From: an uncultured Bordetella sp.
GTDB taxonomy: Bacteria > Pseudomonadota > Gammaproteobacteria > Burkholderiales > SG8-39
Reading direction: 5' to 3'
Length of the DNA stretch: 64,000 bases
Assembly: GCA_964564865.1 (NCBI GenBank)
Contig: CAZMDA010000014.1
Location: forward strand, 113-64,112
The position numbers were made by a program, and so were the translations under genes. The notes below the pieces were generated by a model that worked only from the letters and a program-made list of their open reading frames with translations, was not told the DNA's origin and searched no databases. Position 1 is the stretch's first letter. Every line of letters begins with the position of its first letter. Positions 5,193 through 50,417 of this stretch are shown here, one piece after another.

Positions 5193-5212
5193 ATGTGCAC
5201 GATCGTGCACAT
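5193..5212. repeat. Perfect 20-bp palindrome ATGTGCACGATCGTGCACAT (type A)
   Basis: All 10 pairs checked by eye; intergenic, 19 nt beyond the regulator stop. Confidence 0.9.
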
Positions 5213-5231
5213 GTGCGCCAAGTCCATGGCG

Positions 5232-5981
5232 TCAGCGGATGGCCTCGACCGCCGCCGTGAAGACGTATCCCGCGCCGCGTTCCGTGCGGATGATCCCGGT
5301 ACCCGTGCTGCTGTCTCCGAGCCTGCGGCGCAGGCGCCCGACCTGGACGTCGATGGAGCGGTCGTAGACCTCGTCGTTGTGCAGCCTCGACAGATCCAGC
5401 AATTGCTCGCGCGACAGAACGCGCTGCGGCGAGGCGAGAAAGGCCACCAGCAGGTTGAATTCGCTGTTGGTGAGCGCCACGGACTCGCCGTCGGCGTTCT
5501 TCAAGCGGCGCAGGCGCACGCTAAGCTCCATGCCGGCGAAACGGTAGGCGCGAATCTTCGACAGGCCGTCGGCCACGGTTTGCTGGGCACGGGCGCGGCG
5601 CAGCAGGGCGCGGATCCGCGCCAGCAGCTCGCGGGGCGAAAACGGCTTGGTGAGGTAGTCGTCGGCGCCCAGCTCGAGGCCCATGACGCGGTCGGCCTCG
5701 TCCTTGCGGCCGGTCAGCATGATGATCGGAATCCCGGAGTGCTCTCTCAGGCGGCGGGCGATCTGCATGCCGTCCTCTCCGGGCAGCTTCAGGTCGAGCA
5801 CGATCAAGTCGACGGCCTCGCGCTCCAGGATCGCGCTTACTTCTGCGCCGCCTGCCTGCCCGGTGACCCGCATGTCGTAGTCCCCGAGGTAGTCCGTGAT
5901 CAGCTTGCGGATATCGGGGTCGTCGTCCACGACCAGTACGTGCGTGGACGCAGCATCCGGTGGGGGCATCAGGCCCTTCAT
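5232..5981 (-). CDS. OmpR/VirG-like DNA-binding response regulator
   Basis: Receiver VLVVDDD...LDLKLP...KPF plus winged helix EFNLLVAFL...SREQLL...EVYDRSIDV...RGAGY; start 5981 chosen for its GGAG SD. Confidence 0.92.
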   Translation of the reverse strand: MKGLMPPPDAASTHVLVVDDDPDIRKLITDYLGDYDMRVTGQAGGAEVSAILEREAVDLIVLDLKLPGEDGMQIARRLREHSGIPIIMLTGRKDEADRVMGLELGADDYLTKPFSPRELLARIRALLRRARAQQTVADGLSKIRAYRFAGMELSVRLRRLKNADGESVALTNSEFNLLVAFLASPQRVLSREQLLDLSRLHNDEVYDRSIDVQVGRLRRRLGDSSTGTGIIRTERGAGYVFTAAVEAIR

Positions 5982-6198
5982 GCGGTCAGGCTCCAGGAGG
6001 CGCATCGGGGTCGATACTCGACGGCAGGCATGGCCTGAGTATGTTCCCGCGACGCGGGGCGCATGTCATCCGTCATATTGCGGCATCACCCGGTCATGCT
6101 GGCTGAGGCACTGGCGCTTACCTTACCCGAAACTTACATTCACGGGCGCAGGCGGTGCGGCCGGGCGCAAGCTCGAGGCCGCGACACTGCCGGGAGCA

Positions 6199-6561
6199 AT
6201 GGTGTACGGAAAGGGCTGTATTCTTGTCCTCGAAACGGACGAACTCATTCGAGAGCTGCTCGTGCGCTGGCTTGGCGATGAAGGTTTCGGCGTCTTGGCA
6301 CGGCCCCCTGGAGCGCGCCTGACCAGGGGGAAGTCGATCCGCCTGGTCATCGCCGACCTGTCCGATCCCCGGCATGCCTACGCCCAGATTGCAGCATTGA
6401 AGTCCATGTACGGCGCCCCGGTGCTCGCGCTATCGGCGCGCTTTCGACGCGGCCTCGGCGGCTCGCGGGAGGCGGCGCAGCGGCTGGAAGTGAGCGGTAC
6501 GTTGCCCAAGCCATTCACGCGGGCGGAGCTGTTGGCTGCAGTGCACGAGGCGCTGGCGTGA
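6199..6561 (+). CDS. Single-domain, partly degenerate response regulator receiver
   Basis: ILVLETD...LVIAD...LALSA...LPKPF; stop overlaps the kinase start (GTGA). Confidence 0.7.
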   Translation: MVYGKGCILVLETDELIRELLVRWLGDEGFGVLARPPGARLTRGKSIRLVIADLSDPRHAYAQIAALKSMYGAPVLALSARFRRGLGGSREAAQRLEVSGTLPKPFTRAELLAAVHEALA

Positions 6562-9500
6562 CGGATACAGGCAGACCGGCGAACGAGCCGGTATCGCGGG
6601 CGGGGCGCGAATCGCTCGAAAGCGAGATGGCGCAGCGCACAGCGCAATTGGAGCGTGTCAACGAGGCGCTTCGCCAGTCGGAAGAGCGCTACGGCCTCGC
6701 TTTGGAGGCCACCGAAGAGGGGCATTTCGACGTCAACGTCGACACCGACGAACTCCTCACCTCCGAGCGGCTGAACGAAATCTACGGTTTTCCGCCCGGA
6801 ACGCGCGTGCTGAAGCGCAGCGAGTACCTGAAGGACTTCGGCTTCTACGGCGACGACGGCGAGGTCTACCGAGCGGCAATCGCTGCCGCGGAAGCGCCGG
6901 GCGGGCCGTCACGCTACGAGTTCGAGTATCGCATCCAGCGTCCGTCGGGCGAGCTGCGATGGCTGAAGACGCGCGGGTTGGTGATACGCGACGCCGAAGG
7001 ACGTGCCCGGCGCCGGACCGGCATGGTGGCCGATATCACCGAAGCGAAGAATGCCGAGGCGGCGCTGCGCGAATCCGAGGAGCGATACGGGCGTGCGGTC
7101 CAGGCAAGCGAGGCCGGGTTCTGGGAATGGACCGTGGCCTCCGACACGTTCTACGCGTCGCCGCGCCTGCTCGAGATCTACGGGTTCGAGCCTGGCACCA
7201 CGTTCGCGGGTCGGGCCGACTTCCTCGCCCGCTTTCCGTTCCATGCCGAGGACAAATCGCGCTGGGAGCGTGCGATCGCGGCGCACTTCGCCGGGCATAC
7301 TGCCCGCTTCGACATCGAGATGCGCTTGCTTCCGCGCGGTGAGTTGCGCTGGATTCACCTTACCGGGCTATGCACGCGGGACAAGGACGGAACTGTGGTG
7401 CGCTGGAGCGGTTCCTCAGTCGATATCACTGAGCGCAAGCGGGTCGAGGTTGCGTTGCGTGAATCCGAAGAGCGATTCGCGCTCGCGGTCGCCGGCGCGA
7501 ACGAGGGCATCTTCGATTGGGAAGTGGCGAAGGACCGCGTATACATGTCGGCGCGCGCGCAGGAGATCTTCGGCCTGGTGCCGGGCGAGCCGTGGCGCCC
7601 CCGGCGGGAGTGGATCGCGCTCACTGCGCGACGCACCCCGGGACATCTGGAGCGGGCGGAGGCGGCGCTTCTGGCGCATCTGCGCGGCGAGACACCGATG
7701 TTCCTGCTTGAGTTCGAGCTGGTGCTCCCGGACGGAGGGCGGCGCTGGATTCGCCAGCGCGGCGTGGGTCAGCGGGACGCCGCGGGCCGCGTCCATCGCA
7801 TGGCCGGATCGTTCGAGGACATCAGCGACCGCAAGGCGATCGAGGCTGCGATCCGCCGGAGCGAGACCTACCTCGAGGAGGCGCTGCGTCTGGGTCAGGC
7901 CGGCAGCTTCGCCTACGGGGTGCGGGAGCGGCGCCAGGTGCATTGGTCGCCGACCACCTTCGGCTTGTTCGATTTCGACCCCGGCCCGTCGCCACCTTCC
8001 GCAGAGGAGTTGTGGACCCGCATCCATCCGGAGGACGTCGCGGCGGTTCGCCAGGCGCGCGAGCGGGCGATCCGCGACAAGTGCGAGTACGTCGCCCGCT
8101 ACCGGGCGGTCCATCGCGACGGGTCGATACGGTACCTGCAGTCGGCGGGGCGCCCCTGGCTGGACGAGCAGGGCAACGTGACCGAGCTGGTCGGCGTCGT
8201 CATGGATGTCACCGAGCCGACCCTGGCGGAGAGGACCCTGCGCGAGAGCGAGGCGCGGTTCCGCGCCCTTACCGAACTGTCTTCCGACTGGTTCTGGCGG
8301 CAGGACGAAACACTTCGCTTTCGCTACATGTCGAAACTTGCACCTGCCCTAGGCGGGTATCCCGCGGAGGTCTCGGTCGGCAAGCTGCGGTGGGAGCTTC
8401 CTGGCCTCGTTCCGCTGTCGTGCTCCTGGGCCGAGCACCAGGCCACCCTGGAGGCGCGCCTGCCTTTCCGGGACCTGGAGCTGGCGCGAACGCTGCCGGA
8501 CGGGACCGTCGCATACCTCAGCATCAGCGGCGCGCCGATCTTCGACGAGGCCGGGCGCTTCCTCGGCTACCAGGGCGTCGGCCGCGACATCAGCGCCGGG
8601 AAGCGGATCGAGGAGGCACTGCGCGCGCGCGAGGAGCAGTTGCGCAGCGCGCAGCGCCTGGAGGCGCTGGGAACCCTGGCCGGCGGCATCGCGCATGACT
8701 TCAACAACATCCTTGGCGCGATCCTCGGTTATGGTGAGATGGCGCTGCGCGACGCGCCCGCTGGCAGCCGCCTGCGCCGCGACCTGGACAGCATCGTCGC
8801 CGCCGGCGAGCGCGGCCGTGCGCTCGTGGAACGCATCCTTGCGTTCAGCCGCAGCGGTGTCAGCGAGCGCGTTGCGGTGCATGTCGAGACAGTGGTGGGC
8901 GAGGCATTAGACCTGCTGCGCGCCAGCCTGCCGCCCGGTGTTCGCATCGAGGCCGACTTGCGCGCAGGGCGTGCTGCAATGCTCGGCGACCCGACGCAGG
9001 TGCACCAGGTCGTGATGAACCTGGCGTCCAACGGCATCCAGGCGATGGCCGGGGGCGGCACGTTGTGGGTGTACCTGGTCGTGGAGCGCTTCGCCGAACC
9101 TCGGGTGGCCGTCACCGGGACGGTTCCCGCGGGGGAGTACATCGTACTTCGCGTGGTTGATGAGGGCAGTGGCATCGCCGCCGGGATCCTGGACCGGATC
9201 TTCGATCCGTTCTTCACCACCAAGGACGTCGGCGTGGGAACCGGCCTCGGCCTTTCTCTGGTCCATGGCATCGTCGCGGAGGTCGGTGGTGCGGTGGACG
9301 TCTCGACCGAGGCCAACCTTGGAAGCGTATTCACCGTCTACCTGCCGCGGCAGGGCGATGCGGCTGTGAGCAACGGCCGAATGGCAACCGAGATGCCGCG
9401 CGGTCACGGCGAGCGGGTACTGATCGTGGACGACGAGGAACCGCTGGTGCGGCTCGCGACGGCGACCTTGTCGGATCTCGGCTACGATCCTGTCGGATTC

Positions 9501-9776
9501 ACCTCCAGCGCCGGCGCCCTCGAGGCATTGCGCGCCGCCCCGGAATCCTTCGACGCCGTGATCACCGACGAGCGGATGCCCGGACTTTCCGGGACGGCAC
9601 TGATCGGCGCGGTGCGCGGCATCCGGCGCGACATCCCGATCCTTCTCGTGAGCGGCTACATCGGTGGCAGTATCGTCAACCGTGCCTACAACGCCGGCGC
9701 AGACGAAGTGCTGCGCAAGCCGCTGGCGGCGCGAGACCTGGCCGCCAGCCTCGCGAGGCTTCTGCAGTCGCCATAG
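6558..9776 (+). CDS. Cytoplasmic multi-PAS hybrid histidine kinase with VirA-like transmitter and receiver
   Basis: About five PAS/PAC repeats separated by [9 protein letters not shown]-type linkers; H box [23 protein letters not shown]; C-terminal receiver; no TM segment. Confidence 0.92.
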   Translation: [1072 protein letters not shown]

Positions 9777-9942
9777 ATCGGATTCGTTGGCCCTGGATCT
9801 GCGCTGATAGCGGCCTGCCGCCGCGACAACCGCAATACTCGCGTATGGCATGACATTCGCCGGCCCGCGTTGCGACACAAGCGCGCGGCGGGCAGGGTGG
9901 ACACTGGCCTCACCTGCAAATACCAGGCGAGGAGCCAAACCA

Positions 9943-10767
9943 GTGACCACGATTACCACCAAGGACGGCACGCAGATCTACTACAAGGACTGGGGCAAGG
10001 GACAGCCCGTGGTGTTCAGCCACGGCTGGCCGCTGTCCTCGGATGCGTGGGAAGCGCAGATGTTCCATCTCGCTTCGAATGGCTTTCGCTGCATCGCGCA
10101 CGATCGCCGCGGGCACGGGCGCTCCAGCCAGCCTTGGGAAGGCAACCATATGGACCAGTACGCCGACGACCTGGCGGAACTGTTCGAGGTGCTCAACCTG
10201 AAGAACGCGATCATGATTGGCCACTCCACCGGCGGCGGCGAAGTCGCGCGCTACATCGGCCGGCACGGCACCGAGCGTGTCGCCAAGGCGGTATTGATGG
10301 GGGCGGTGCCGCCCATCATGGTGAGGACGGCAGCCAACCCGGGTGGATTGCCGCTGGAGGTGTTCGACGGTTTTCGCAAGGCCTACCTCGCCGACCGCGC
10401 GCAGTTCTTCATCGACGTGGCGAGCGGGCCATTCTTCAGCTTCAACCGCCCGGGCGCGAAGATTTCGCAGGGCGTGATCAATGCCTGGGTGATGCAGGGC
10501 CTGATGTCCGGCCACAAGAACGGCTACGACTGCATCAAGGCGTTCTCCGAAACCGACTTCACCGGCGACCTGAGGAAATTCGATGTGCCCACGCTGATCG
10601 TGCACGGCGACGACGACCAGATCGTGCCGATCGGCGCCTCGGCGATGCTTTCCGCGAAGCTCGTCAAGGGATCGATCCTGAAGATCTACAAGGGGGGCTC
10701 GCACAGCCTGGGCGATACCAGCAAGGACCAGCTCAATGCCGATCTGCTGGCGTTCGCGAGGAGCTAG
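9943..10767 (+). CDS. cpo: Non-heme chloroperoxidase-type alpha/beta hydrolase
   Basis: GTG start after GGAG; [32 protein letters not shown] motifs. Confidence 0.9.
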
Positions 10768-10769
10768 CC

Positions 10770-11675
10770 ATGGTCCGTGTCCTGCGGGGACTCCTCGCCA
10801 CGGCCGCCGCACTCTCGGTGACCGGCGCGTCGGCGGCGTCGCCCGCGGCTGCGGCGTCGACACGGTACGTGGAGGTCCAGGGGCGGCCGGTCGCCTATCG
10901 GGTGATCGGCAAAGGCAGGCCGCTCCTCATGGCGACCCGCATGCGCGGGACGCTCGACACCTGGGACCCGCTGTTCCTGGACGAGCTTGCGAAGACGCAT
11001 CGTGTCATCACCTTCGACTACCCGGGCGCGGGTTACTCGGCGGGCGTGCTGCCCGGAGACATGCGCGAGATTGCGGCCTTGGTCAAGGATCTCGCGGCGG
11101 CGCTCGGCCTTAAGCGGACCGCGATCCTCGGCTGGTCGTGGGGCGGGCTCGTGGCGCAGGTGACGCTGCTCGACTACCCGTCGCTCGTGACCCACGCCGT
11201 CATCGTCGGGAGCGCACCGCCCGGGAAGGGCAATGCGACGATCCAGCCGCACTGGCTGGAGCGGGCGTTCAAGCCTGTCAACGACCTCGCCGACGAAGAG
11301 GTCTTGTTCTTCGAGCCGAAGTCCGACGCCAGCCGCGACGCGGCACGGAAGTCCCATGCACGCATCTACGCCCGGCCAGGCGTGGCGGAGCGGATCCCAT
11401 CGTCACTGCGGGACATCCAAGCCTACCTGAAGGTGGCGGAGGGTGTGCGCGAGGATACGCCCGGGCGACGCGAAGCGCTGACGACAACGCGGATCCCGAT
11501 CCTGATCCTGTGCGGTGACAACGACCCGAGCGTGCCGGCCGGAAACTGGTATCCGCTCGTCGGCCGCATCCCGCGCGGCCAACTCATCGTCCTGCCCGAA
11601 TCGGGCCACGGGCCCCAGCACCAGTATCCGGAACTGGCTGCGAGATACATCGCCGCCTTCCTGGAGTCGAAGTGA
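10770..11675 (+). CDS. Exported alpha/beta hydrolase
   Basis: Signal peptide; GWSWGG nucleophile elbow; GDND acid; SGHG His. Confidence 0.8.
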   Translation: MVRVLRGLLATAAALSVTGASAASPAAAASTRYVEVQGRPVAYRVIGKGRPLLMATRMRGTLDTWDPLFLDELAKTHRVITFDYPGAGYSAGVLPGDMREIAALVKDLAAALGLKRTAILGWSWGGLVAQVTLLDYPSLVTHAVIVGSAPPGKGNATIQPHWLERAFKPVNDLADEEVLFFEPKSDASRDAARKSHARIYARPGVAERIPSSLRDIQAYLKVAEGVREDTPGRREALTTTRIPILILCGDNDPSVPAGNWYPLVGRIPRGQLIVLPESGHGPQHQYPELAARYIAAFLESK

Positions 11676-11718
11676 AAACCGCCGTTTCCGATCGATCGCC
11701 TGTCAAGGGAGTACCGCA

Positions 11719-12573
11719 ATGACAACAGCATTGGCCAATGCCGCAAGGGAAGAGCGCATCGAAGGGGCGCGCGGACTTGGGATCTTCGTCCGCTCGTGGC
11801 AGCCGGAAGAAAAGCCCCGCGCGATCGTCGCCATCTGCCACGGCGTCAATTCCCACAGCGGGTACTACACCTGGGTGGCCGAGCAGTTCGTGGCGGCCGG
11901 CCTCGCTGTGTATGCGCTGGACCTGCACGGTCGCGGCAAGTCGGACGGCGAGCGCTACTACCTTGAGAAGTTCGACGACTACCTCAGCGACGTCGATGCC
12001 CTCGTCAGGCTCGCGAAATCGCGCGAACCGGGCCTGCCCCTGTTCCTGCTGGGGCACAGTGCCGGCGGCGTCATTTCCTCCGTCTACGCGCTGGAGCACC
12101 AGTCCGAGCTCGCCGGGTTGATCTGCGAGAGCTTTGCGTTCCAGGTGTACGCGCCGGACTTCGCGCTCGCGGTACTGAAGGGACTAAGCCATGTCCTGCC
12201 GCATGCCCATGTGCTCAAGCTGCCGATCGCGGACTTCTCCCGCGATCCGGCGGTCGTGGAGGCCATGAACAACGACCCGCTCATCGCCAATGAAGTCCAG
12301 CCTACGCGCACTGTGGCCGAACTGGTGCTGGCCGACGAGCGGCTGAAGCGGGAGTTCCCGCTCTTCAGGTTGCCGGTGCTGATCCTCCACGGCACGGCGG
12401 ACAAGGTGACAAAGCCCGGCGGGAGCCAGCTCTTCTACGACAACGCCGGCTCCGCCGACAAGACGCTCAAGCTCTACGAAGGGCATGTCCACGACCTATT
12501 AAACGACTTCGGCAAGGAGAAGGTCATGGCGGACGTCACGGCCTGGATTAAGGCGCACCTGCCGGCACGGTGA
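11719..12573 (+). CDS. Lysophospholipase/monoacylglycerol lipase-like hydrolase
   Basis: HGVNSHSGYY, DLHGRGKSDG, GHSAGG, HGTADK, HDLLND. Confidence 0.85.
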   Translation: MTTALANAAREERIEGARGLGIFVRSWQPEEKPRAIVAICHGVNSHSGYYTWVAEQFVAAGLAVYALDLHGRGKSDGERYYLEKFDDYLSDVDALVRLAKSREPGLPLFLLGHSAGGVISSVYALEHQSELAGLICESFAFQVYAPDFALAVLKGLSHVLPHAHVLKLPIADFSRDPAVVEAMNNDPLIANEVQPTRTVAELVLADERLKREFPLFRLPVLILHGTADKVTKPGGSQLFYDNAGSADKTLKLYEGHVHDLLNDFGKEKVMADVTAWIKAHLPAR

Positions 12574-12681
12574 TGGCGACCAGTTGCTTCGCAACGGCTG
12601 ACATGCAGCCGGGCCGGCCTGACACAACGCCGCGCTGGTTCACCGCCAGACTGTCCCCATAACTCACTAGAAGGAATGATC

Positions 12682-13428
12682 ATGTCGAAGCTCCTGAAGA
12701 AATCTCTCCGGCTGCTCTGCGCGACCCTGGCGGCCTGGAGTCTTGTGTCTGCACCGGGCGCGCTCGCGCAGTCCAGCGTCCTGCCCACGGGCGGCGGCAA
12801 GGCGCTGCTGGATGTGAATGACACGGTACTCCTGCTGCTGGACCACCAGTCGGGCCTGTTCCAGACCGTGAAGGACGTGCCGGTGGCGGACCTGCGGCGC
12901 AACGTGGAGATGCTGTCGCGGCTGGCCACGCTGCTGAAGATCCCGGTGATCACCACGGCGTCCGAGCCGGACGGCTCGAACGGGCCGCTAATGCCGGAGA
13001 TCCACCAGCTCGCGCCGCACGCGGTCTACGTGCCGCGCAAGGGAGAGGTCAACGCCTGGGACAACGAGGACTTCGTTCGCACCGTGCGCGCCACCGGCCG
13101 CAAGACGCTGGTCATGGCCGGCGTGTGGACCAGCGTGTGCGTCATGTTCCCAGCACTGGATGCCAAGGCCCAGGGGTACAAGGTCTATGCCGTCATGGAT
13201 GCCTCCGGGGATCCGAGCGAGCTCGCTTCGATCACCTCGCTGGCGCGCTTCGCGCAGGGGGGGGTGATCCCGACCTCGACCAATGCCGTGCTGTCGGAGA
13301 CGCACCGCACCTGGAACCGCCCCGAGGCCGCCGAGCTGGCCAAGCTGTATGCGCTGGTCGCGCCCAACTACCAGGCGGTGGCGGAAAGCTACCAGCGCGC
13401 TCAGGAAGCGGCCCGCAAGGCGAAGTAG
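12682..13428 (+). CDS. ycaC: YcaC-like isochorismatase-family cysteine hydrolase with N-terminal signal peptide
   Basis: LLLDHQSGL, RKGEVNAWDN, GVWTSVC motifs; SD AGAAGGA. Confidence 0.8.
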   Translation: MSKLLKKSLRLLCATLAAWSLVSAPGALAQSSVLPTGGGKALLDVNDTVLLLLDHQSGLFQTVKDVPVADLRRNVEMLSRLATLLKIPVITTASEPDGSNGPLMPEIHQLAPHAVYVPRKGEVNAWDNEDFVRTVRATGRKTLVMAGVWTSVCVMFPALDAKAQGYKVYAVMDASGDPSELASITSLARFAQGGVIPTSTNAVLSETHRTWNRPEAAELAKLYALVAPNYQAVAESYQRAQEAARKAK

Positions 13429-13467
13429 CCGGCGAACCGGCTCTCCGACACCAACCCTGGAAGGATC

Positions 13468-14001
13468 ATGATGAGCATCGATACCGCGAAGGCGATGCGC
13501 AAGGCGCCGCTTGGCACTCCGACCGGCCTGGGCGCCGACGCCAGGCGCGACATCGCCGGCGCCCTCAACCTGCTGCTGGCCGATTTCTACGCGCTCTATT
13601 TCAAGACGAAGAACTTCCACTGGCATGTGTCGGGGCCGCACTTCCGCGACTACCACGAGCTGCTGGACGAGCAGGCGGCGCAGCTCTACGCCGCCACCGA
13701 CTCGCTGGCCGAGCGGGTGCGCAAGGTGGGCGGCACGACGCTGCGCTCGGTGGGCCACATCGCCCGGTTGCAGCGGGTGCTGGACAACGACGCCGACTAT
13801 GTATCGCCGCTGGACATGCTGGCGGAGCTGAAGGACGACAACCTCGGAATGGCGTCGCACTTGCGGGCCGCGCACGGCGTGTGCGACGAACACCGCGACA
13901 TCGCCACCGCGAGCCTGCTGGAAGTCTGGATCGACGAGGCGGAGAAGCGCACCTGGTTCCTGTTCGAGGCAAGCAGGAAGGGCGACGCCCCCGGCCGGTG
14001 A
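13468..14001 (+). CDS. dps: Dps/ferritin-like DNA protection protein
   Basis: YFKTKNFHWHVSGPHFRDYHELLDEQ, AERVRKVGG, IDEAEKRTWFL. Confidence 0.93.
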   Translation: MMSIDTAKAMRKAPLGTPTGLGADARRDIAGALNLLLADFYALYFKTKNFHWHVSGPHFRDYHELLDEQAAQLYAATDSLAERVRKVGGTTLRSVGHIARLQRVLDNDADYVSPLDMLAELKDDNLGMASHLRAAHGVCDEHRDIATASLLEVWIDEAEKRTWFLFEASRKGDAPGR

Positions 14002-14036
14002 CGGCCGTTCGATCCGACGCGGCGCGGGTCTGTGCG

Positions 14037-14074
14037 GATACACGCGGGATACCTTCACGACATCCGCCGGCAAC
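14037..14074 (+). promoter_or_regulatory. Four phased pentamers (GATAC, GATAC, GACAT, GCAAC) at exact 11-bp spacing; candidate OmpR-family binding array
   Basis: Starts at 14037, 14048, 14059, 14070, upstream of the methyltransferase. Confidence 0.45.
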
Positions 14075-14120
14075 CGCGTCCGTTCAAAGTGGCGCCTCCA
14101 TTCAACGAGGGAGTAACGCC

Positions 14121-14960
14121 ATGTCCGCAGTCCTTTCCGCAACCCAATCCGCCGCCGCACCCGATTTCGCCGCGATCAAGACCCGCCAGCAGGCCGCCTG
14201 GTCCACCGGCAACTACGCCGTGGTCGGCACCACGCTGCAGATCGTGGGCGAGGACCTGTGCGAGGCGCTCGACCTGCGCTCGGGCAGCAAGGTGCTCGAT
14301 GTGGCCGCCGGCAACGGCAACGCCACGCTGGCCGCCGCGCGGCGCTGGTGCGACGTCACCTCCACCGACTACGTCGGCTCGCTGCTCGAGGCCGGCAAGG
14401 CGCGCGCGCAGGCCGAAGGCCTCGAGGTGAAGTTCCAGCAGGCCGACGCCGAGAACCTGCCCTTTGCCGACGCCAGCTTCGACGCCGTGCTGTCCACCTT
14501 CGGGGTCATGTTCACGCCGGACCAGGAGAAGGCCGCGGCGGAACTCGCGCGCGTGTGCAAGCCCGGCGGCAGGATCGGCCTCGCCAACTGGACCCCGGAG
14601 AGCTTCATCGGGCAGCTGTTCAAGACCATCGGCAAGTACGTGCCGCCGGCCCCGGGCGTGCAATCGCCCGCGCTGTGGGGCACGCAGGCGCGGCTGGAGA
14701 CGCTGTTCGGCCAGGCGGCGCGGGAGATCCGCGTCGTCAGCCGCCAGTTCAATTTCCGCTACCGCTCGGCGGCGCACTGGCTGGAGGTGTTCCGCACCTT
14801 CTACGGTCCGGTGAACAAGGCCTTCGGCGCGCTGGACGCGGACAAGCAGGCCGCCTTCGCGCGCGACGTGATGGCGCTCATCGACAGCCGCAACCGCTCC
14901 GGCGACGCCACGCTGGTGCTGCCCAGCGAGTACGTCGAGGTGGTGATCGTGAGAAGCTGA
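14121..14960 (+). CDS. Class I SAM-dependent methyltransferase
   Basis: VLDVAAGNGN, ADAENLPFADASFDAV, CKPGGRIG; SD GAGGGAG. Confidence 0.9.
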   Translation: MSAVLSATQSAAAPDFAAIKTRQQAAWSTGNYAVVGTTLQIVGEDLCEALDLRSGSKVLDVAAGNGNATLAAARRWCDVTSTDYVGSLLEAGKARAQAEGLEVKFQQADAENLPFADASFDAVLSTFGVMFTPDQEKAAAELARVCKPGGRIGLANWTPESFIGQLFKTIGKYVPPAPGVQSPALWGTQARLETLFGQAAREIRVVSRQFNFRYRSAAHWLEVFRTFYGPVNKAFGALDADKQAAFARDVMALIDSRNRSGDATLVLPSEYVEVVIVRS

Positions 14961-14966
14961 ACGCCC

Positions 14967-15761
14967 ATGCCCCAGCCTGAGCCGTATTTCCGGGAAGCGG
15001 GCGCCGGTCCCGGCGTCGTCTGCCTGCATTCCAATGCGAGCAGCTCCAGCCAGTGGCGCGGGCTCATGGAGTCGCTCGCGCCGGCGTTCCATGTGCTGGC
15101 ACCCGATTCCTACGGCTCGGGCAAGAGCCCGGACTGGCCCTCGGACCGCGTCATCACGCTGCGGGACGAAGCGGCGCTCGTCGAGCCGGTGCTCGCGCGG
15201 GCAGGCGCGCCGTTCGCGCTGGTGGGGCATTCCTACGGCGCGGCGATCGCGCTCTCCGCGGCGCTGGCGAATCCGGGCCGCGTGCGGGCGCTGGCGCTCT
15301 ACGAGCCGACGCTGTTCTCGCTGCTGGCGCAGGAGCAGCCGCCGTCGAACGACGGCGAGGGCATCCTCGGCGCGGTGGCCCGCGCGAGCGCGGCGCTGGA
15401 CGCCGGCGACCGCGACGCCGCCGCGCGGCATTTCATCGACTACTGGATGGGCGAGGGCGCCTGGGCGCAGACCCCCGAATCACGCAAGCCGGCGATCGCC
15501 GCCTCGGTGGTGAACGTGCGGCGCTGGGCGCATGCGCTGACCACCGAGCCCGCGCCGCTGGCGGCGTTCCGCAAGCTCGACATCCCGGTGCTCTACCTGA
15601 TCGGCAAGCGCTCGACCGCGTCGGCGCACGGCGTGGCGCGGGTGCTGACGCAGGCCCTGCCGCGCGTGGAGGTGGTCGAATTCGAGAAGCTGGGCCACAT
15701 GGGGCCGGTGACCCATCCGGAGCCGGTGAACGAGGCGATCCGGGCGTTCCTCGGGCGCTGA
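14967..15761 (+). CDS. Alpha/beta hydrolase
   Basis: LHSNASS, GHSYGAA, GHMGPVTHP. Confidence 0.85.
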   Translation: MPQPEPYFREAGAGPGVVCLHSNASSSSQWRGLMESLAPAFHVLAPDSYGSGKSPDWPSDRVITLRDEAALVEPVLARAGAPFALVGHSYGAAIALSAALANPGRVRALALYEPTLFSLLAQEQPPSNDGEGILGAVARASAALDAGDRDAAARHFIDYWMGEGAWAQTPESRKPAIAASVVNVRRWAHALTTEPAPLAAFRKLDIPVLYLIGKRSTASAHGVARVLTQALPRVEVVEFEKLGHMGPVTHPEPVNEAIRAFLGR

Positions 15762-15802
15762 CGGGCTTCCCATGTAACCGATCGGTTACATTACGGGCTT
15801 CC
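15761..15802. repeat. Perfect 20-bp palindrome ATGTAACCGATCGGTTACAT (type B, 15772-15791) flanked by exact 10-bp direct repeat ACGGGCTTCC (15761-15770 and 15793-15802)
   Basis: Read directly from the sequence. Confidence 0.9.
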
Positions 15803-15843
15803 GGCGATGCCCTGTTGCAGCTTGACCGAGAAAGGAGAAGCCA

Positions 15844-16170: not shown

Positions 16171-16183
16171 CCGCCGCGCCCCG

Positions 16184-17284: not shown

Positions 17285-17285
17285 C

Positions 17286-19016
<1,731 letters not shown>

Positions 19017-19018
19017 GG

Positions 19019-27576: not shown

Positions 27577-29057
27577 TTGACGACCCCTTCGCGCAGCTCG
27601 CGCCGCAGCTCGCCGCCACGGGGGCCGCGATCGTGCGCCTGACCTCCGACAGCCGCCAGGCGGCGCCCGGCGCGGCGTTCTTCGCCTGGCCCGGCGCCGG
27701 CGGCGACGGCCGCCGCCATATCCCGGAGGCGATCGGCCGCGGCTGCGACGCGGTGCTCTGGGAGCGCGAAGGCTTCGACTGGAACAGCCAGTGGCGCGTG
27801 CCCAACGTCGGCGTGAGGGGCCTGAAGGCGCGCGCCGGGCACCTCGCCGACGCCTTCTACGGCCGGCCCTCGGCGTCGCTGTGGACCTGCGGCGTCACCG
27901 GTACCAACGGCAAGACCTCCTGCGCGCAATGGATCGCGGCCGCGCTCTCGGCGCGCGGCGAGAAGACCGGGCTGATCGGCACGCTGGGGGCGGGTTTCGC
28001 CGGCGCGCTGGCGCCGGTGGCGAACACCACGCCCGACGCGCTCGAGGTGCACCGGCTGCTGGCGCAGATGAAGGGCGCCGGCGCCGCGGCCGTGGCGATG
28101 GAGGTGTCCTCGCACGGCCTGGACCAGGGGCGCGTGAACGGGGTCGCGTTCGACTGTGCCCTGTTCACCAACCTGTCGCACGACCACCTCGACTACCACG
28201 GCAGCATGGAGGCCTACGCCGCCGCCAAGGCGCGCCTGTTCGACACGCCCGGGCTGGAAACCGCGGTGCTGAACCTGGACGACGTGCTGGGGGTGCAGCT
28301 CGCCGCCCGGCTCGCGGCGCGCGGCGTGTGCACGATCGGTTACACGCTGGACCGCGCCGCGGTGGCGCCGGGATCGGTGAGCGACTGGATCTGCGCGAGC
28401 CCGGAAGGCGATGCGCGCATCGCCATCGAATCGAGCCGGGGCCGCGCAACGGTCGCCTTCGGCCAGCTTGGGCGCTTCAACCTCGCCAATGCCCTGGGCG
28501 TGCTGGGCTGCCTGCTCGCGCGCGGCCTGCCGTTCCCGGAGGCGGCGCGGCTGCTGGAGAAGCTGCCGCCGGTGCCGGGCCGCATGCAGCGGGTCGGTTC
28601 GGGCGAGGCGGGTCCGCTGGTGGTGGTGGACTACGCCCACACGCCGGATGCGCTGGACAAGGTGCTGCAGGCCCTGAAGCCGGTGGCGGCGGCGCGCGGC
28701 GGCCGCCTCGTGGCGGTGTTCGGCGCCGGCGGCGGGCGCGATGCCGCCAAGCGGCCCGCGATGGGCGCGGCCGCGGCGCGCCACGCCGACCGCGTGGTCC
28801 TGACCTCGGACAACCCCCGCGGCGAGGACCCGCTCGCCATCCTGGCCGCGATCGCGAAGGGCGTCACGGTGCCGCACGAGGCCGAGCCCGACCGCGCGCG
28901 CGCCATCGCCAGCGCGATCGCGCTCGCCGCGCCGGCCGACGTGGTGCTCGTCGCCGGCAAGGGCCACGAGGCGTTCCAGGAGATCGGCGGCCGCCGGCTG
29001 CCGTTCTCGGATGCGGCGGTGGCGCAGGCCGCGCTGGCGTCGAGGGCCGGGACATGA
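27573..29057 (+). CDS. murE: UDP-MurNAc-tripeptide ligase; start probably CTG overlapping the ftsI stop
   Basis: DSR, GVTGTNGKT, MEVSSH, VDYAHTPD, DNPR, GKGHE; no in-frame ATG/GTG before the first conserved strand. Confidence 0.92.
   Translation: MIDDPFAQLAPQLAATGAAIVRLTSDSRQAAPGAAFFAWPGAGGDGRRHIPEAIGRGCDAVLWEREGFDWNSQWRVPNVGVRGLKARAGHLADAFYGRPSASLWTCGVTGTNGKTSCAQWIAAALSARGEKTGLIGTLGAGFAGALAPVANTTPDALEVHRLLAQMKGAGAAAVAMEVSSHGLDQGRVNGVAFDCALFTNLSHDHLDYHGSMEAYAAAKARLFDTPGLETAVLNLDDVLGVQLAARLAARGVCTIGYTLDRAAVAPGSVSDWICASPEGDARIAIESSRGRATVAFGQLGRFNLANALGVLGCLLARGLPFPEAARLLEKLPPVPGRMQRVGSGEAGPLVVVDYAHTPDALDKVLQALKPVAAARGGRLVAVFGAGGGRDAAKRPAMGAAAARHADRVVLTSDNPRGEDPLAILAAIAKGVTVPHEAEPDRARAIASAIALAAPADVVLVAGKGHEAFQEIGGRRLPFSDAAVAQAALASRAGT
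28326..28345. repeat. Chimeric palindrome-family copy GTGTGCACGATCGGTTACAC inside murE
   Basis: Left arm matches type A and right arm matches type B, 12 nt each with a shared core. Confidence 0.4.
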
Positions 29058-42097: not shown

Positions 42098-42180
42098 GGC
42101 ACGAAAGCTTACCTCGCGGCCGCCGGCGCCGAGGAGCGCCGCCTTGCCAGGGAGGGGCGCTTGGTAGAATCCGGGCCGGA

Positions 42181-43537: not shown

Positions 43538-43557
43538 GGATAGACGAGGGAGATTGC

Positions 43558-44505: not shown

Positions 44506-44621
44506 CCGGCGCGGCGGGTCTGCGCCCCGGGCGCGCCCCTGCGGCGTGCTAAAATCTTTTTCTTTTACCGGGGCTTAGCGTGCCCCGGGCGCCCGATTTT
44601 CCCCAGCATGCCAGCCCACTG

Positions 44622-47410
<2,789 letters not shown>

Positions 47411-47411
<1 letters not shown>

Positions 47412-48622
47412 TGGCCGTCCGGCTCGACCCTCCCGATCCCGCTGCGCTGCACCCGGTTCCCGGGGTGGAGCTGGGCATCGCCATGGCCGGGGTGAAGAAG
47501 GCCAACCGCAAGGACGTGCTGGTGGTCCGCGTGGCGCCCGGCAGCGCGGTGGCGGGCGTGTTCACGAAGAACCGCTTCTGCGCCGCGCCGGTGGTGCTGG
47601 CGAAGAAGAACATCGGCAACGCCGTGCGCGCGCTGGTGGTGAACACCGGCAACGCCAATGCCGGGACCGGCAAGGAAGGACTCAGGCGCGCCAACGCGGT
47701 CTGCGCCGCCCTCGCGAAGCACCTCGGATGCAAGCCGAACCAGGTGCTGCCGTTCTCGACCGGCGTGATCATGGAGCAGCTGCCGGAGGCGAAGATCGTC
47801 GCCGGGCTGCCGGCCGCGATCTCGGACCTGAGACCCGCCAACTGGGCTTCCGCCGCGGAAGCCATCATGACCACCGACACCATCGCCAAGGCCGCTTCGC
47901 GCATGGTGGAGCTCTCCACCGGCGTGGCCACCGTCACCGGGATCGCCAAGGGCTCGGGGATGATCCGGCCGGACATGGCTACGATGCTGGGGTTTCTCGC
48001 CACTGACGCAAAAGTCTCCCGCTTGGAACTCCAGCGCATCACGCGAACGGCCGCGGACCGGTCGTTCAATGCCATCACGGTGGATGGGGACACGTCGACG
48101 AACGATGCGTTCGTGTGTCTCGCCACCGGAAAAGGCCCGGTGGCGAGATCGATGAAAGACAAAGACCTTCTGGCGAAGGCGATCACCGAGGTTTCGCAGG
48201 TGCTCGCCCAGGCCATCGTGCGCGACGGCGAGGGCGCGACCAAGTTCGTCACCGTGACCGTGGAAAAGGGCAGGAGCGAGGCCGAGTGCCGCAAGGTGGC
48301 CTACGCCATCGCGCACTCGCCGCTGGTGAAGACCGCGCTGTTCGCCTCCGACCCGAACCTGGGCCGCATCCTCGCCGCGGTGGGCTACGCCGGGATCGCC
48401 GACCTCGACACCTCGAAAGTCGACCTGTCCCTCGACGACGTCCTCGTCGCCAAGGGCGGCGCGCGCCATGCCGGCTACCGCGAGGCGCAGGGCGCGGCGG
48501 TGATGAAGCAGGACGAGATCACGATCCGGGTGCGGCTCAACCGCGGCAAGGCGGCGGCCACGGTGTGGACCTGCGATTTCTCCTACGACTACGTGAAGAT
48601 CAACGCCGAGTACCGGACATGA
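47411..48622 (+). CDS. argJ: Ornithine acetyltransferase ArgJ
   Basis: [37 protein letters not shown]. Confidence 0.96.
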
Positions 48623-49479
48623 GCCAGTCTATCGACAAGTTGCTGGAGCGCCTGGACCAGCTGCTGCCGCCGCCGCCGCCCGCGACCGACTGGGGCGCGA
48701 GCATCGCCTTCCGCTGGCGCCGGGCGGTGGGACCCAACGGACGCGGCTGGCTGCAGCCTGTGAAGCACGTGCACAAGATGAAGCTCTCCGACCTGCAGGG
48801 CATCGGCCCCCAGATCGCCAAGGTGGAGCAGAACACGAAGCAGTTCATGGACGGCCGCCCGGCCAACAACGTGCTCCTCACCGGCGCGCGCGGCACCGGC
48901 AAGTCCTCCATCGTGAAGGGGCTGCTGAACAAGTACCACCGGCAGGGCCTGCGGCTGGTCGAGGTCGAGAAAAGCGACCTCGGCGACCTGCCGGCGATCA
49001 CCGACGCGCTGTCCGCGCGCCCGGAGCGGTTCCTGGTCTTCTGCGACGACCTCACCTTCCACGGCGCGGAGGAGGGCTACATCGCGCTCAAGGTGGCGCT
49101 GGACGGCTCCATCTCCACCACCTCCGAGAACATGCTCATCTACGCCACCTCCAACCGGCGCCACCTGATGCCGGAGTACATGGCCGAGAACCTCGAGACC
49201 AAGTACGTCGGCGACGAGATCCACCCCGGCGAGACCGCGGAGGAGAAGATTTCCCTGTCCGAGCGCTTCGGCCTGTGGGTGTCCTTCTATCCCTTCGACC
49301 AGGACGAGTACCTCGCCATCGTCGCGCACTGGCTGAAGACCTTCGGCTGCTCGGCGAAGGAGATCGAGTCGGCGCGCGAGGAGACGCTGCAGTGGTCCAT
49401 GCAGCGGGGCTCGCGCAGCGGCCGCATCGCCTACCAGTTCGCGCGGGACTGGGCCGGGCGCCACGCCAAGAAGAAGTAG
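48619..49479 (+). CDS. DUF815 AAA+ ATPase
   Basis: [23 protein letters not shown]. Confidence 0.9.
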
Positions 49480-50402
49480 TGGTCGAGGTCGCCGCCGCCG
49501 TCATCGAGCGCGCGGACGGCAGTTTCCTGCTCGCGCAGCGCCCCGCCGGCAAGGTGTACGCCGGCTGGTGGGAGTTTCCCGGCGGCAAGGTGGAGGCAGG
49601 CGAGCCCTCGGCCGACGCGCTCGCGCGCGAGCTGCGCGAGGAGATCGGCATCGAGGTGGTGAAGGCCTACCCCTGGGTGTCGCGCGTGCACGTCTACGAG
49701 CACGCCGTGGTCATGCTGCATTTCTACCGGGTGGTGGAGTGGCGCGGCGAGCCGCACGCGCGCGAGGGCCAGGCGCTCGCCTGGCAGCGCCCCGGGGAGC
49801 CCGCGCTGGAGCCGATGCTGCCCGCCAACGGGCCGGTGCTGGCGTCGCTGGCGCTGCCGCTGGAGTACGCCATCACCGACGCGGAGTCGCTCGGCCTGGA
49901 GGGCATGCTTGCCTACGCCGAGATGCGGCTCGCGCAGGGGCTGCGCATGATCCAGGTGCGGGACAAGGCGCTGCCGGAGCGCGACCTGCTCATCAGCGAG
50001 TTGAAGCAGAGGGCGGCGCGCCATGGGGCGCGGATCCTCGTGAACGGCGGGCCCGTAGGAGAAAACACCGCGGATGGCATCCACTACACCGCCGCGCAAC
50101 TGATGAAGCTGAAGTCGCGGCCGCCGGAGATCCTCGCCGGCGCGTCCTGCCACACGGTGCAGGAGCTCGGCCACGCCATGGCCATCGGGCTGGACTTCGC
50201 GGTGCTGGGGCCGGTGCGCGCCACGGCGACCCACCCGGGGGCGCAGACGCTGGGCTGGGAGGGCTTCGCGCGGATCGCGGCGAACGCCTCGATCCCGGTG
50301 TACGCCATCGGCGGGCTGACGGCGGAGGACCTGGACAACGCGCGCGCCGCGGGCGCGCACGGGCTGGCGATGATCCGGGGCAGCTGGACGGCCCGGATGT
50401 AA
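49479..50402 (+). CDS. Nudix (MutT-like) / thiamine phosphate synthase-like fusion
   Basis: Nudix box GGKVEAGEPSADALARELREEIG; C-terminal ASCH...YAIGG. Confidence 0.88.
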   Translation: MVEVAAAVIERADGSFLLAQRPAGKVYAGWWEFPGGKVEAGEPSADALARELREEIGIEVVKAYPWVSRVHVYEHAVVMLHFYRVVEWRGEPHAREGQALAWQRPGEPALEPMLPANGPVLASLALPLEYAITDAESLGLEGMLAYAEMRLAQGLRMIQVRDKALPERDLLISELKQRAARHGARILVNGGPVGENTADGIHYTAAQLMKLKSRPPEILAGASCHTVQELGHAMAIGLDFAVLGPVRATATHPGAQTLGWEGFARIAANASIPVYAIGGLTAEDLDNARAAGAHGLAMIRGSWTARM

Positions 50403-50417
50403 CCGATCGGTTACATC
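50396..50417. repeat. Second type B palindrome (22 bp: GATGTAACCGATCGGTTACATC) containing the Nudix gene stop codon
   Basis: 20-bp core identical to 15772-15791; lies between convergent genes. Confidence 0.9.

What the first reader, a model, noticed from the sequence alone, without database searches (positions are those of the whole stretch)
5193..50417. Family of perfect 20-bp GATC-centred palindromes with compensatory arm changes
Seen: ATGTGCACGATCGTGCACAT (5193-5212) and ATGTAACCGATCGGTTACAT (15772-15791 and 50397-50416, identical and 34.6 kb apart). All share length, ATGT/ACAT ends and the CGATCG core. The three variable bases change in both arms so symmetry is kept, which means palindromy itself appears selected. 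All lie at or just past gene 3' ends, and the third sits between convergent genes where an operator has no promoter to control. They lack the loop and GTAG tag of classical REPs. They fit TGT-N12-ACA (PpsR/CrtJ consensus; TyrR box TGTAAA-N6-TTTACA), so a transcription-factor site is the alternative. Inference: an undescribed dispersed repeat (mini-MITE, cruciform, or nucleoid/methylation-reader site).
Basis: partly seen in the sequence, partly recalled or inferred. Interest (0 to 1): 0.75.

Follow-up and report, generated by a model that had tools for sequence, protein, structure and literature searches.

The report
Dispersed GATC-centred palindromes at gene ends
The three perfect 20-bp palindromes are real members of a lineage-specific, REP-like family of small repeats that sit just after stop codons in a group of uncultured Burkholderiales, are kept base-perfect across species, and come in a few symmetric "dialects" that swap at the same genomic spots, but what reads them is still unknown.

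Summary
The window also holds a fourth copy, a hybrid inside murE (28327-28344).

The motif is a dispersed repeat, not a local oddity. Truncated scans found more than 200 copies. They lie in at least 8 related betaproteobacterial MAGs and many metagenome contigs, at roughly one copy per 15-50 kb.

- **Unit:** the whole 20-24 bp dyad, RA-TGT-xxx-CGATCG-x'x'x'-ACA-TY. Half-sites alone are not enriched, and degenerate copies are almost absent.
- **Position:** copies lie 0-40 bp after stop codons. Per base they are 8-fold denser between convergent genes than between divergent genes.
- **Conservation:** at orthologous sites the core stays perfect while flanks drift to about 65% identity.
- **Dialects:** the 3-bp cassette occurs in symmetric forms, AAC, GCA and TAC here and ACA in a sister lineage. 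These replace each other at the same orthologous sites. Hybrids are rare.
- **The murE hybrid:** it was built by three point changes including Arg->Cys. It is the only arm combination compatible with the invariant TIGY peptide.
- **Negative results:** no GTAG/CGTC tag, no RAYT-like gene in 1.6 Mb of flanks, no canonical terminator and no promoter association.

Verdict: an untagged REP-like family with an unusually strict, perfectly symmetric core. Its reader protein and function are unresolved. The transcription-factor operator reading is not supported.

The parts
5193..5212 (.). Copy 1, GCA/GCA dialect: ATGTGCACGATCGTGCACAT. It lies between two minus-strand genes, 19 nt after the response-regulator stop and 37 nt before the GNAT start.
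15772..15791 (.). Copy 2, AAC/AAC dialect: ATGTAACCGATCGGTTACAT. It lies 11 nt after the hydrolase stop and 52 nt before the lipoprotein gene ATG (15844).
28326..28345 (.). It is a hybrid GCA|AAC copy, gTGTGCACGATCGGTTACAc, inside murE, read as V-C-T-I-G-Y-T. It is conserved in two other species, and relatives without it have Arg (CGC) in place of Cys.
50396..50417 (.). Copy 4, AAC/AAC dialect, 22-bp perfect palindrome GATGTAACCGATCGGTTACATC. It contains the TAA stop of the Nudix/ThiE gene and lies between convergent genes. It is perfectly conserved at the orthologous spot in relatives L092 and L093/L094.

Best explanation
**What it is.** The palindromes belong to a lineage-specific family of small dispersed palindromic repeats of the REP kind, the 'untagged' REP-like stem-loop sequences.

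**The unit.** It is a 20-24 bp perfectly two-fold symmetric sequence, (A/G)A-TGT-xxx-CGATCG-x'x'x'-ACA-T(T/C). It sits 0-40 bp after stop codons, mostly between convergent or co-directional genes. Density is about one copy per 15-50 kb in a genus-to-family-level group of uncultured, roughly 68-70% GC Burkholderiales.

**Shown here.**
- The whole dyad is the unit.
- Every core base is held constant at orthologous sites while the flanks diverge.
- The 3-bp cassette exists as a few symmetric dialects: AAC, GCA and TAC in this lineage, ACA in a sister lineage.
- Dialects replace one another at the same orthologous sites.

**Inferred.**
1. A lineage-encoded, sequence-specific factor reads the element and co-evolves with it.
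2. Copies are kept uniform and re-written as whole units by a conversion- or transposition-like process, as proposed for REP/RAYT pairs. Four independent point mutations per site are an unlikely route.
3. The element acts at gene ends and works identically in both directions. Either strand's transcript carries the same 8-bp-stem, GAUC-loop hairpin, and duplex DNA presents the same face to a dimer. That fits a 3'-end, insulating or architectural element rather than a promoter operator.

**Open.** Whether the form that is read is duplex DNA, extruded or single-stranded DNA, or RNA is not resolved.
For: **Family and copy number**
They fall mostly in five MAGs: SAW223, Bin_20_2, SAR238, F1-120-MAGs184 and K_DeepCast.
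- The metagenome scan gave 120 more loci.

**The unit is the whole dyad**
- Half-sites outside full sites are at or below expectation.
- Of the near-matches, 83 are perfect, 4 have one mismatch, 3 have two and none has three.

**Position**
- Site classes: 37 tandem, 36 convergent, 6 divergent, about 10 coding.
- Sites per kb of intergenic DNA: 3.07 in convergent, 0.92 in tandem and 0.37 in divergent regions.
- In tandem cases the median gap to the upstream stop is about 20 nt, read.

**Conservation**
- In 12 orthologous pairs the core averages 97% identity, with 10 of 12 perfect. The 40-bp flanks average 63-68%.
- The Nudix-cupin site is kept in relatives at about 90% identity and absent at 71-74%.

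**Dialects**
- AAC/AAC 70, GCA/GCA 15 and hybrids 5, with both types present in each MAG.
- An ACA/ACA dialect occurs exclusively in some soil and rhizosphere samples.
- That lineage is syntenic with the carrier MAGs SAW223 and Bin_20_2 at 64-92% protein identity.
- ACA replaces AAC at 5 or more orthologous spots. GCA and AAC swap at another.

**Other support**
- The hairpin is feasible: -8.5 to -12.9 kcal/mol.
- The literature describes REPs as 20-40 bp, lying downstream of ORFs between unidirectional and convergent genes, with untagged families known (PMC3733652). REP class switching together with its RAYT ('orthoswitch') is described in PMC3686654.
Against: - There is no GTAG or CGTC tag, and the element has no asymmetry at all.
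- No Y1/RAYT-like ORF was found in 1.61 Mb around about 215 sites. The query sequences were recalled from memory, so sensitivity is uncertain.
- No recurrent neighbouring gene family was found.
- Copies are singletons, not BIME- or REPIN-type doublets.
- There is almost no mutational cloud. A second, classical-looking repeat family in the same genomes does show one.
- Positions -2 and +2 prefer purine and pyrimidine independently, without base-pair covariation (Fisher p = 0.16). This favours half-site reading on duplex DNA over a stem.
- The murE copy is a hybrid that cannot form the perfect hairpin. It arose by substitution rather than insertion and is conserved in three species.
- Four other coding copies exist.
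- No function has been measured.
Confidence: 0.5

Rival explanations
1. The sites are duplex-DNA binding sites of a two-fold symmetric chromosomal protein, in the manner of parS/ParB, NBS/Noc, matS/MatP or SBS/SlmA. They would be maintained by selection for chromosome organisation, not by any mobile or hairpin mechanism. The 3'-end location would only reflect avoidance of promoters and of coding constraints.
For: - Dyad symmetry is perfect, including the flanks, with no base-pair covariation at -2/+2.
- Every base is invariant, the 'loop' included, across species.
- The murE site was made by three substitutions including Arg->Cys. It uses the only arm combination compatible with the invariant TIGY peptide and is kept in three species.
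- Four other coding copies are of the stop-free GCA type.
- No transposase was found.
- The AAC arm gives TAA in one frame on both strands. That alone would push sites out of genes.
Against: - Hybrids of the two arm types are 5-6 fold rarer than free combination predicts.
- Sites hug the upstream stop (median about 20 nt) even when hundreds of bp of spacer are available.
- The concerted dialect switch needs 4 substitutions per site at many sites.
- In the sister lineage the core usually carries a GCGGGG-N9-CAAA arm that can extend the hairpin to about 25 bp.
- Known sites of this class are mostly intragenic and regionally clustered. Clustering could not be tested on MAG contigs.
Confidence: 0.22
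2. The palindrome is a DNA uptake signal, analogous to DUS or USS. Biased uptake plus recombination would keep copies perfect, spread them into permissive spots and switch dialects genome-wide.
For: - Dialects are lineage-specific, with orthologous positions retained.
- Copies are perfect and conserved across species.
- A coding copy was created by point mutation in a tolerant frame.
- The position at gene 3' ends between convergent genes resembles inverted DUS/USS pairs (my knowledge of Neisseria and Haemophilus).
- Type IV pilus genes pilB, pilC and pilD lie in the window.
Against: - Density is 1 per 15-50 kb. The known cases have about 1 per kb.
- Half-sites are not enriched at all.
- One-mismatch copies are very few.
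- Only about 5-10% of copies are in coding DNA.
- A 20-bp palindromic uptake signal has no precedent.
Confidence: 0.08
3. The sites are simply bidirectional intrinsic terminators or mRNA 3' stabilisers. Only the hairpin would matter, and no dedicated reader protein would be involved.
For: - The position is right after stops and between convergent genes.
- The flanks are A-rich on the left and T-rich on the right.
- Canonical terminators lie near only 3 of 93 sites, so these genomes have few alternatives.
- Many convergent spacers are only 40-70 bp and contain nothing else.
Against: - The stem is short and AT-rich for a 70% GC genome, and the T-run is only 1-3 nt. The terminator scan of 1-20000, which covers sites 1 and 2, did not call either of them.
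- A structure-only role cannot explain invariance of every base and of the loop, or the use of only 3-4 of the 64 possible compensated cassettes.
- In L010 and L065 the palindrome sits next to a separate canonical terminator.
Confidence: 0.12
4. The sites are operators of a transcription factor regulon, either of PpsR/CrtJ TGT-N12-ACA type or a TyrR-like or CRP-like dimer.
For: The motif formally fits TGT-N12-ACA. The AAATGT...ACATTT ends resemble CRP-family sites (my knowledge). Sites 1 and 2 in the window lie 37-52 nt upstream of a start codon.
Against: - Divergent promoter regions are the most depleted class.
- Distance to the downstream start is variable, whereas distance to the upstream stop is tight.
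- Neighbouring genes are functionally unrelated.
- Copies are essentially identical rather than degenerate.
- About half of the sites lie between convergent genes.
Confidence: 0.03

Closest known systems
REP elements, including 'untagged' REP-like stem-loop sequences (Di Nocera et al. 2013, PMC3733652; Nunvar et al. 2010 and 2013)
   Same: - The unit is a 20-40 bp palindrome present in dozens to hundreds of dispersed copies.
- Copies are extragenic, lie just downstream of ORFs, are enriched between unidirectional and convergent genes and are rare between divergent ones.
- The sequence is lineage-specific, and several compensated classes co-exist in one genome.
- Classes switch between relatives, and occasional intragenic copies occur.
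   Different: - There is no GTAG or CGTC tag.
- Dyad symmetry is perfect, including a self-complementary GATC centre, so the element has no orientation.
- Copies are singletons, not doublets.
- There is almost no sequence cloud.
- No RAYT was seen in 1.6 Mb of flanks.
- Copies persist base-perfect at orthologous sites across species.
DNA uptake sequences with dialects (Neisseriaceae DUS, Pasteurellaceae USS)
   Same: Perfect copies, lineage dialects at conserved positions, inverted arrangement at gene 3' ends, and coding copies made by point mutation.
   Different: - Density here is 20-50 times lower.
- The unit is a 20-bp palindrome with no free half-sites.
- Near-miss copies are far fewer.
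- Uptake has not been tested.
Chromosomal palindromic protein sites (parS, NBS, matS, SBS)
   Same: A perfect or near-perfect 13-16 bp dyad in tens of copies, conserved across related species, and able to be written into coding sequence.
   Different: Those sites are largely indifferent to gene ends and are regionally clustered. Here at least 85% of copies are intergenic at 3' ends. The binding protein is unknown.
HIP1 (GCGATCGC) of cyanobacteria
   Same: A highly iterated palindrome centred on CGATCG/GATC.
   Different: HIP1 is 8 bp, occurs about once per kb and lies mostly inside genes. Here CGATCG as such is not over-represented outside the 18-mer (484 observed against 497 expected).

Membership tests
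Classical REP (RAYT-associated, tagged) | Small (about 20-40 bp) palindromic unit able to form a stem-loop | tested here: met
   The 20-22 bp perfect palindrome folds as an 8-11 bp stem with a GAUC loop at -8.5 to -12.9 kcal/mol.
Classical REP (RAYT-associated, tagged) | High copy number, dispersed over the genome | tested here: inconclusive
   At least 40 copies lie on 2.1 Mb of SAW223 contigs and at least 37 in Bin_20_2. The window has 4 in 64 kb. The total per genome is not known (MAGs).
Classical REP (RAYT-associated, tagged) | Extragenic, mainly between unidirectional and convergent ORFs and downstream of coding regions | tested here: met
   Classes: 37 tandem, 36 convergent, 6 divergent, about 10 coding. 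The per-kb density in convergent regions is 8 times that in divergent regions.
Classical REP (RAYT-associated, tagged) | Conserved terminal tetranucleotide (GTAG or CGTC) at one end | tested here: not met
   The flank profile of 93 copies shows only symmetric R/A-rich (left) and Y/T-rich (right) positions and no tag.
Classical REP (RAYT-associated, tagged) | A RAYT (Y1 transposase) gene flanked by the repeats (REPtron) | tested here: inconclusive
   No HUH/Y1-like ORF was found in 1.61 Mb around about 215 sites, and no recurrent neighbouring gene. The queries were recalled from memory and whole genomes were not available.
PpsR/CrtJ or TyrR-type operator | Sites lie in promoter regions of a functionally coherent regulon and are degenerate around a consensus | tested here: not met
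   Divergent regions are depleted, sites hug upstream stops, neighbouring genes are unrelated and copies are identical.
DNA uptake sequence (DUS/USS) | About 1 copy per kb, single-orientation units frequent in coding DNA | tested here: not met
   Density is about 1 per 15-50 kb. Half-sites are not enriched. About 5-10% of copies are coding.
DNA uptake sequence (DUS/USS) | Sequence-biased DNA uptake by a dedicated receptor | not testable with these tools
   This needs transformation assays in a cultured member of the lineage.
Intrinsic terminator | G+C-rich stem followed directly by a U-tract | tested here: not met
   The stem is 37-50% GC. T dominates at +1 (91 of 93), falls to 48 of 93 at +2 and 30 of 93 at +3. 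The terminator scan of 1-20000, which contains sites 1 and 2, did not call either of them.
MITE | Terminal inverted repeats around an internal segment, with direct target-site duplications | tested here: not met
   The element is only the 20-bp dyad. The flanks are not direct repeats. The murE copy arose by substitution, not insertion.
parS/NBS/matS-type chromosomal site | Bound by a dedicated dimeric protein and regionally clustered on the chromosome | not testable with these tools
   The protein is unknown, and the carrier genomes are fragmented MAGs.

The most novel reading that the evidence does not exclude
The palindrome is not a selfish REP but a gene-end 'punctuation' or chromosomal address. 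A co-evolving, two-fold symmetric host protein would read it on duplex DNA. Its specificity would have shifted between sister lineages (AAC/GCA against ACA), dragging about a hundred conserved sites with it, without any transposase. That would be a new site/reader system, either an architectural or insulating protein or possibly a palindromic DNA-uptake signal. It would be strong enough to force an Arg->Cys change in murE.
Probability: 0.25. Interest if true: 0.75.

Novelty: new variant of a known kind. Interest (0 to 1): 0.5.

Why it matters
Small dispersed palindromes are common, but what maintains them is mostly unknown outside the GTAG/RAYT families.

This family is unusually clean. It has a perfectly symmetric core, almost no decay, base-perfect conservation at orthologous sites and a handful of symmetric dialects. 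Those dialects swap at the same positions between sister lineages. One copy is written into an essential gene at the cost of an amino-acid change.

These properties make it a good system for asking two questions. The first is how a host keeps about a hundred scattered sites identical, whether by conversion, drive or selection. The second is which protein reads them.

For now it is an undescribed repeat family in uncultured bacteria, and its function is inferred rather than measured.

Tried and rejected
- **Chance:** rejected.
- **Half-site or uptake-like single motif:** half-sites are not enriched.
- **Longer conserved element in this lineage:** the flanks add only a weak palindromic extension. 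Seven copies have 4 or more extra bp against 1.8 expected. No enriched flank 6-mers were found.
- **Recurrent neighbouring gene or REPtron:** none.
- **Canonical terminators beside the sites:** only 3 of 93.
- **Rfam family:** none in the window.
- **Phage association:** one hit per dialect in 2.9 million viral contigs, which is chance level.
- **Literature search for the 18-mer:** no paper.
- **Odd reading frame at 17.3-19.0 kb:** it is an ordinary ilvD/edd dehydratase gene on the minus strand.
- **Tracing window sites 1 and 2 in relatives through the hydrolase at 9850-10767:** this failed. That gene is a widely shared chloroperoxidase-like family with 80-87% hits across phyla.
- **Aconitase coding copy, insertion or substitution:** the PDB alignment was inconclusive.
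- **Low-GC metagenome hits (L163, L109, L136, L151 and others):** these are unrelated organisms. Their number is what a 64-variant 20-mer pattern should yield by chance in about 10^12 bases (my estimate).
- **Scan coverage:** the scan pattern sampled only 8 of the 64 possible cassettes per arm.

Full report
**1. Observation**

None is expected by chance: 0 matches in 100 shuffles.

Relaxing the ends reveals a fourth copy at 28327-28344, TGTGCACGATCGGTTACA. It joins a GCA-type left arm to an AAC-type right arm. No degenerate copies exist in the window at up to 3 mismatches.

The window is about 70% G+C. It is an ordinary betaproteobacterial chromosome segment: two-component system, hydrolases, ilvD/edd, the mraZ-to-ftsZ dcw cluster, lpxC, secA, argJ, Nudix/ThiE, yacG, zapD, coaE, pilBCD, ffh, rpsP, rimM, trmD.

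- Site 1 lies 19 nt after one stop and 37 nt before the next start.
- Site 2 lies 11 nt after a stop and 52 nt before a start.
- Site 3 contains the TAA stop of the Nudix/ThiE gene and faces a convergent cupin gene.
- Site 4 lies inside murE.

**2. It is a dispersed, lineage-restricted family**

I scanned one genome per species (GTDB) for ATGTRMMCGATCGKKYACAT. Most loci come from a few MAGs: 'Betaproteobacteria SAW223', 'Burkholderiales Bin_20_2', SAR238, F1-120-MAGs184 and K_DeepCast_65m. The scattered single hits in unrelated phyla are at noise level.

Both arm types co-exist in each carrier MAG. A metagenome scan added 120 loci. Two viral scans gave one hit each, which is chance level.

Relatives with about 90% identical orthologues keep the Nudix-cupin site. 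Relatives at 71-74% identity have no such site in 21 kb.

**3. Anatomy**

I collected 93 copies from the carrier lineage.

- The 18-mer core is invariant apart from the 3-bp cassette.
- Position -1/+1 is A/T.
- Position -2/+2 is purine/pyrimidine in about 90% of copies.
- Position -3/+3 disfavours T/A.

These flank preferences are symmetric but do not covary as base pairs. The -2/+2 counts are A-T 28, A-C 14, G-T 17 and G-C 17 (Fisher p = 0.16). Perfect extension beyond 20 bp is only slightly above a shuffle control.

Half-sites outside full sites are at or below expectation, for example TGTAACCG 3 observed against 3.9 expected. Mismatch classes are 83 perfect, 4 with one mismatch, 3 with two and 0 with three.

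Cassette pairs are AAC/AAC 70, GCA/GCA 15 and AAC/GCA 5, plus a few TAC, GAC and GTA variants. If arms combined freely, about 28 hybrids would be expected (my arithmetic).

As RNA or single-stranded DNA the core folds into an 8-bp stem with a GAUC loop at -8.5 to -10.6 kcal/mol. With AAA/TTT flanks the value is -12.9. Rfam finds nothing in the window.

**4. Position relative to genes**

I used a GC3-based gene caller of my own. It is crude and missed some genes.

- Sites fall between tandem genes (37), between convergent genes (36), between divergent genes (6) or in coding sequence (about 10).
- Per kb of intergenic DNA the density is 3.07 in convergent, 0.92 in tandem and 0.37 in divergent regions.
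- In tandem cases the site hugs the upstream stop (median about 20 nt), even when hundreds of bases of spacer follow.
- Many convergent spacers are only 40-70 bp and contain nothing but the palindrome.
- Only 3 of 93 sites have a canonical G+C-rich terminator nearby.

This is the positional signature reported for REP families (PMC3733652). It is the opposite of an operator signature.

**5. Conservation and dialects**

In 12 orthologous comparisons, at 72-93% DNA identity in the genes, the 20-bp core is perfect in 10. The 40-bp flanks average 63-68% identity. The position relative to the stop codon also shifts. The core is therefore held by selection or by active homogenisation.

The cassette can change as a unit. 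Downstream of one orthologous gene, Bin_20_2 has the GCA type where another MAG has the AAC type.

The metagenome scan uncovered a third symmetric dialect, TGTACACGATCGTGTACA, with 36 copies. It is exclusive to certain soil and rhizosphere samples. These contigs are syntenic with SAW223 and Bin_20_2 at 64-92% protein identity. They carry ACA where the latter carry AAC at 5 or more orthologous intergenic spots.

In that sister lineage the core usually has a GCGGGG-N9-CAAA arm on one side. Of 33 copies, 23 have the arm on the left and 17 on the right (9 of these on both sides), and 2 have none. With both arms, a stem of about 25 bp is possible. SAR238 copies show a similar arm. SAW223, Bin_20_2 and the window do not.

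A genome-wide, position-preserving change needing 4 substitutions per site is hard to obtain by independent point mutation. It suggests either a reader that co-evolves with its sites or a process that re-writes whole units. For REPs, class switching together with the cognate RAYT ('orthoswitch') has been described (PMC3686654).

**6. The coding copies**

The murE copy reads GTG/ATG TGC ACG ATC GGT TAC, that is V/M-C-T-I-G-Y. It is identical in the window, in L100 and in SAW223 (L101).

Relatives L102 and L103 have CGC ACC ATC GGG/GGC (R-T-I-G-Y) at the same place. So the site arose by three substitutions towards the motif. These include Arg->Cys and a switch to the rare GGT codon (GGT 10 against GGC 124 in these genes).

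T-I-G-Y is invariant in the family. I worked through the reading frame for each arm type:
- An AAC left arm would give a TAA stop.
- A TAC left arm would give L-P.
- A GCA right arm would give V-H.
- A TAC right arm would give G-N.

The observed GCA|AAC hybrid is therefore the only combination of known arms that the protein tolerates. This is my inference from the sequence.

Third-position identity between these genomes is 0.74-0.84. Conservation alone is thus weak evidence. The directed origin is the stronger point.

Four further coding copies are all GCA/GCA, read as C-T-I-V-H. GCA is the stop-free dialect. Whether the aconitase copy is an insertion could not be decided.

**7. What I could not find**

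- No GTAG or CGTC tag.
- No recurrent neighbouring gene.
- No Y1/RAYT-like ORF in 1.61 Mb around about 215 sites. The queries were recalled from memory.
- No paper containing the 18-mer.

Suppose each genome had one REPtron flanked by two of about 100-200 sites. I would then have expected 2-4 hits, so the absence is moderately informative but not decisive.

**8. Interpretation**

The family is best filed next to REPs, as an untagged REP-like repeat. Size, copy number, gene-end position, convergent bias, lineage specificity, co-existing compensated classes and class switching all match.

It departs from classical REPs in five ways:
- perfect two-fold symmetry, including a self-complementary centre;
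- no tag;
- no doublets;
- almost no sequence cloud, whereas a second, classical-looking repeat in the same genomes has one;
- base-perfect persistence at orthologous sites.

The evidence is split on which molecular form is read.

| Points towards duplex DNA read by a dimer | Points towards a hairpin or a unit-copy process |
|---|---|
| Independent R/Y flank preferences | Scarcity of hybrids |
| The invariant 'loop' | Tight hugging of stop codons |
| The hybrid, substitution-built mure copy → see note | Outer arms in sister lineages |

Note on the table's third left-hand row: this is the hybrid murE copy described in section 6, which was built by substitution.

I commit, at about 0.5, to a REP-type element kept uniform by a cognate, co-evolving factor and acting symmetrically at gene ends.

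The rivals are:
- a pure duplex architectural site (0.22);
- a structure-only terminator or stabiliser (0.12);
- an uptake signal (0.08);
- a transcription-factor operator (0.03).

**9. Limits**

- Carrier genomes are fragmented MAGs and both large scans were truncated. Copy numbers are therefore lower bounds, and chromosomal distribution is unknown.
- The scan pattern covered only 8 of the 64 possible cassettes per arm.
- The blocks were ascertained for having a site.
- My gene calls are approximate.
- No expression, binding or methylation data exist.

Noticed in passing
window 21889-21909; also L033 5721/5757, L037 440/472 and 7777/7803, L064 621/648 and 4294/4331, L067 500/556, L068 4623/4653, L100 481, L101 4201/4805: A second, unrelated repeat family, about 21 bp, CAGGGACRGWCCACGATTTCC. 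It often occurs as inverted pairs 5-35 nt apart and shows clear sequence variation, so it looks like a classical REP/REPIN-type element. Several copies lie right next to the GATC palindrome.
   Followed up: partly
L111-L214 (samples Ga0315912, Ga0315910, Ga0097621, Ga0068865, Ga0068871, Ga0068859, Ga0134121): A sister lineage uses a different symmetric dialect, TGTACACGATCGTGTACA. It usually has a GCGGGG-N9-CAAA arm on one side and sometimes on both, which would give a hairpin of about 56 nt. It carries this dialect at spots where SAW223 and Bin_20_2 have the AAC dialect.
   Followed up: partly
L065 1308 and 6885, compared with L010 5889: In Bin_20_2 a 5.5-kb gene block (IclR regulator, CoA-transferase-like genes) is bracketed by two copies of the palindrome, each with an adjacent canonical terminator. 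SAW223 has one copy and no block. This could be a deletion or an insertion by recombination between copies. Indels or synteny breaks also abut the palindrome in L033/L062, L032/L061, L079/L084 and L006/L007.
   Followed up: partly
window 58220-58765 (minus strand): A small protein with an Mrr_N winged-helix domain lies between ffh and rpsP. It is present in the window and in carriers L092 and L093. Other genes take its place in the non-carrier relatives L095 and L096. It is a weak, untested candidate for a reader protein.
   Followed up: no
window about 5000-17300: This stretch looks accessory. GC3 is lower, and there are several alpha/beta hydrolases, including a chloroperoxidase-like gene (9850-10767) with 80-87% identical hits across phyla. 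Synteny with SAW223 breaks at ilvD/edd. Yet the stretch carries two of the four palindromes.
   Followed up: partly
L006 218, 2064, 2871 and L069 1074, 3438, 4976: Clusters of three palindromes within 3-4 kb separate single accessory genes: an AAA ATPase, a zeta-toxin-like protein and a PIN-domain toxin. The layout is cassette-like.
   Followed up: no
L163 3230-3520 (39% G+C contig, unrelated organism): A repeat of about 145 bp (at least two units, at 3356 and 3501), with four ATGTNACC-N4-GGTNACAY-type palindromes across the stretch, including the exact AAC 20-mer twice. It looks like an iteron- or centromere-like array of protein-binding sites. It shows that such a dyad can serve as a duplex binding site elsewhere.
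   Followed up: no
L151 about 200-260, L136 9055, L137 8537 (low-GC contigs): TGTGAACGATCGTTCACA occurs in operator-like clusters. It resembles Rex-type boxes (from memory) and is unrelated to the family studied here.
   Followed up: no
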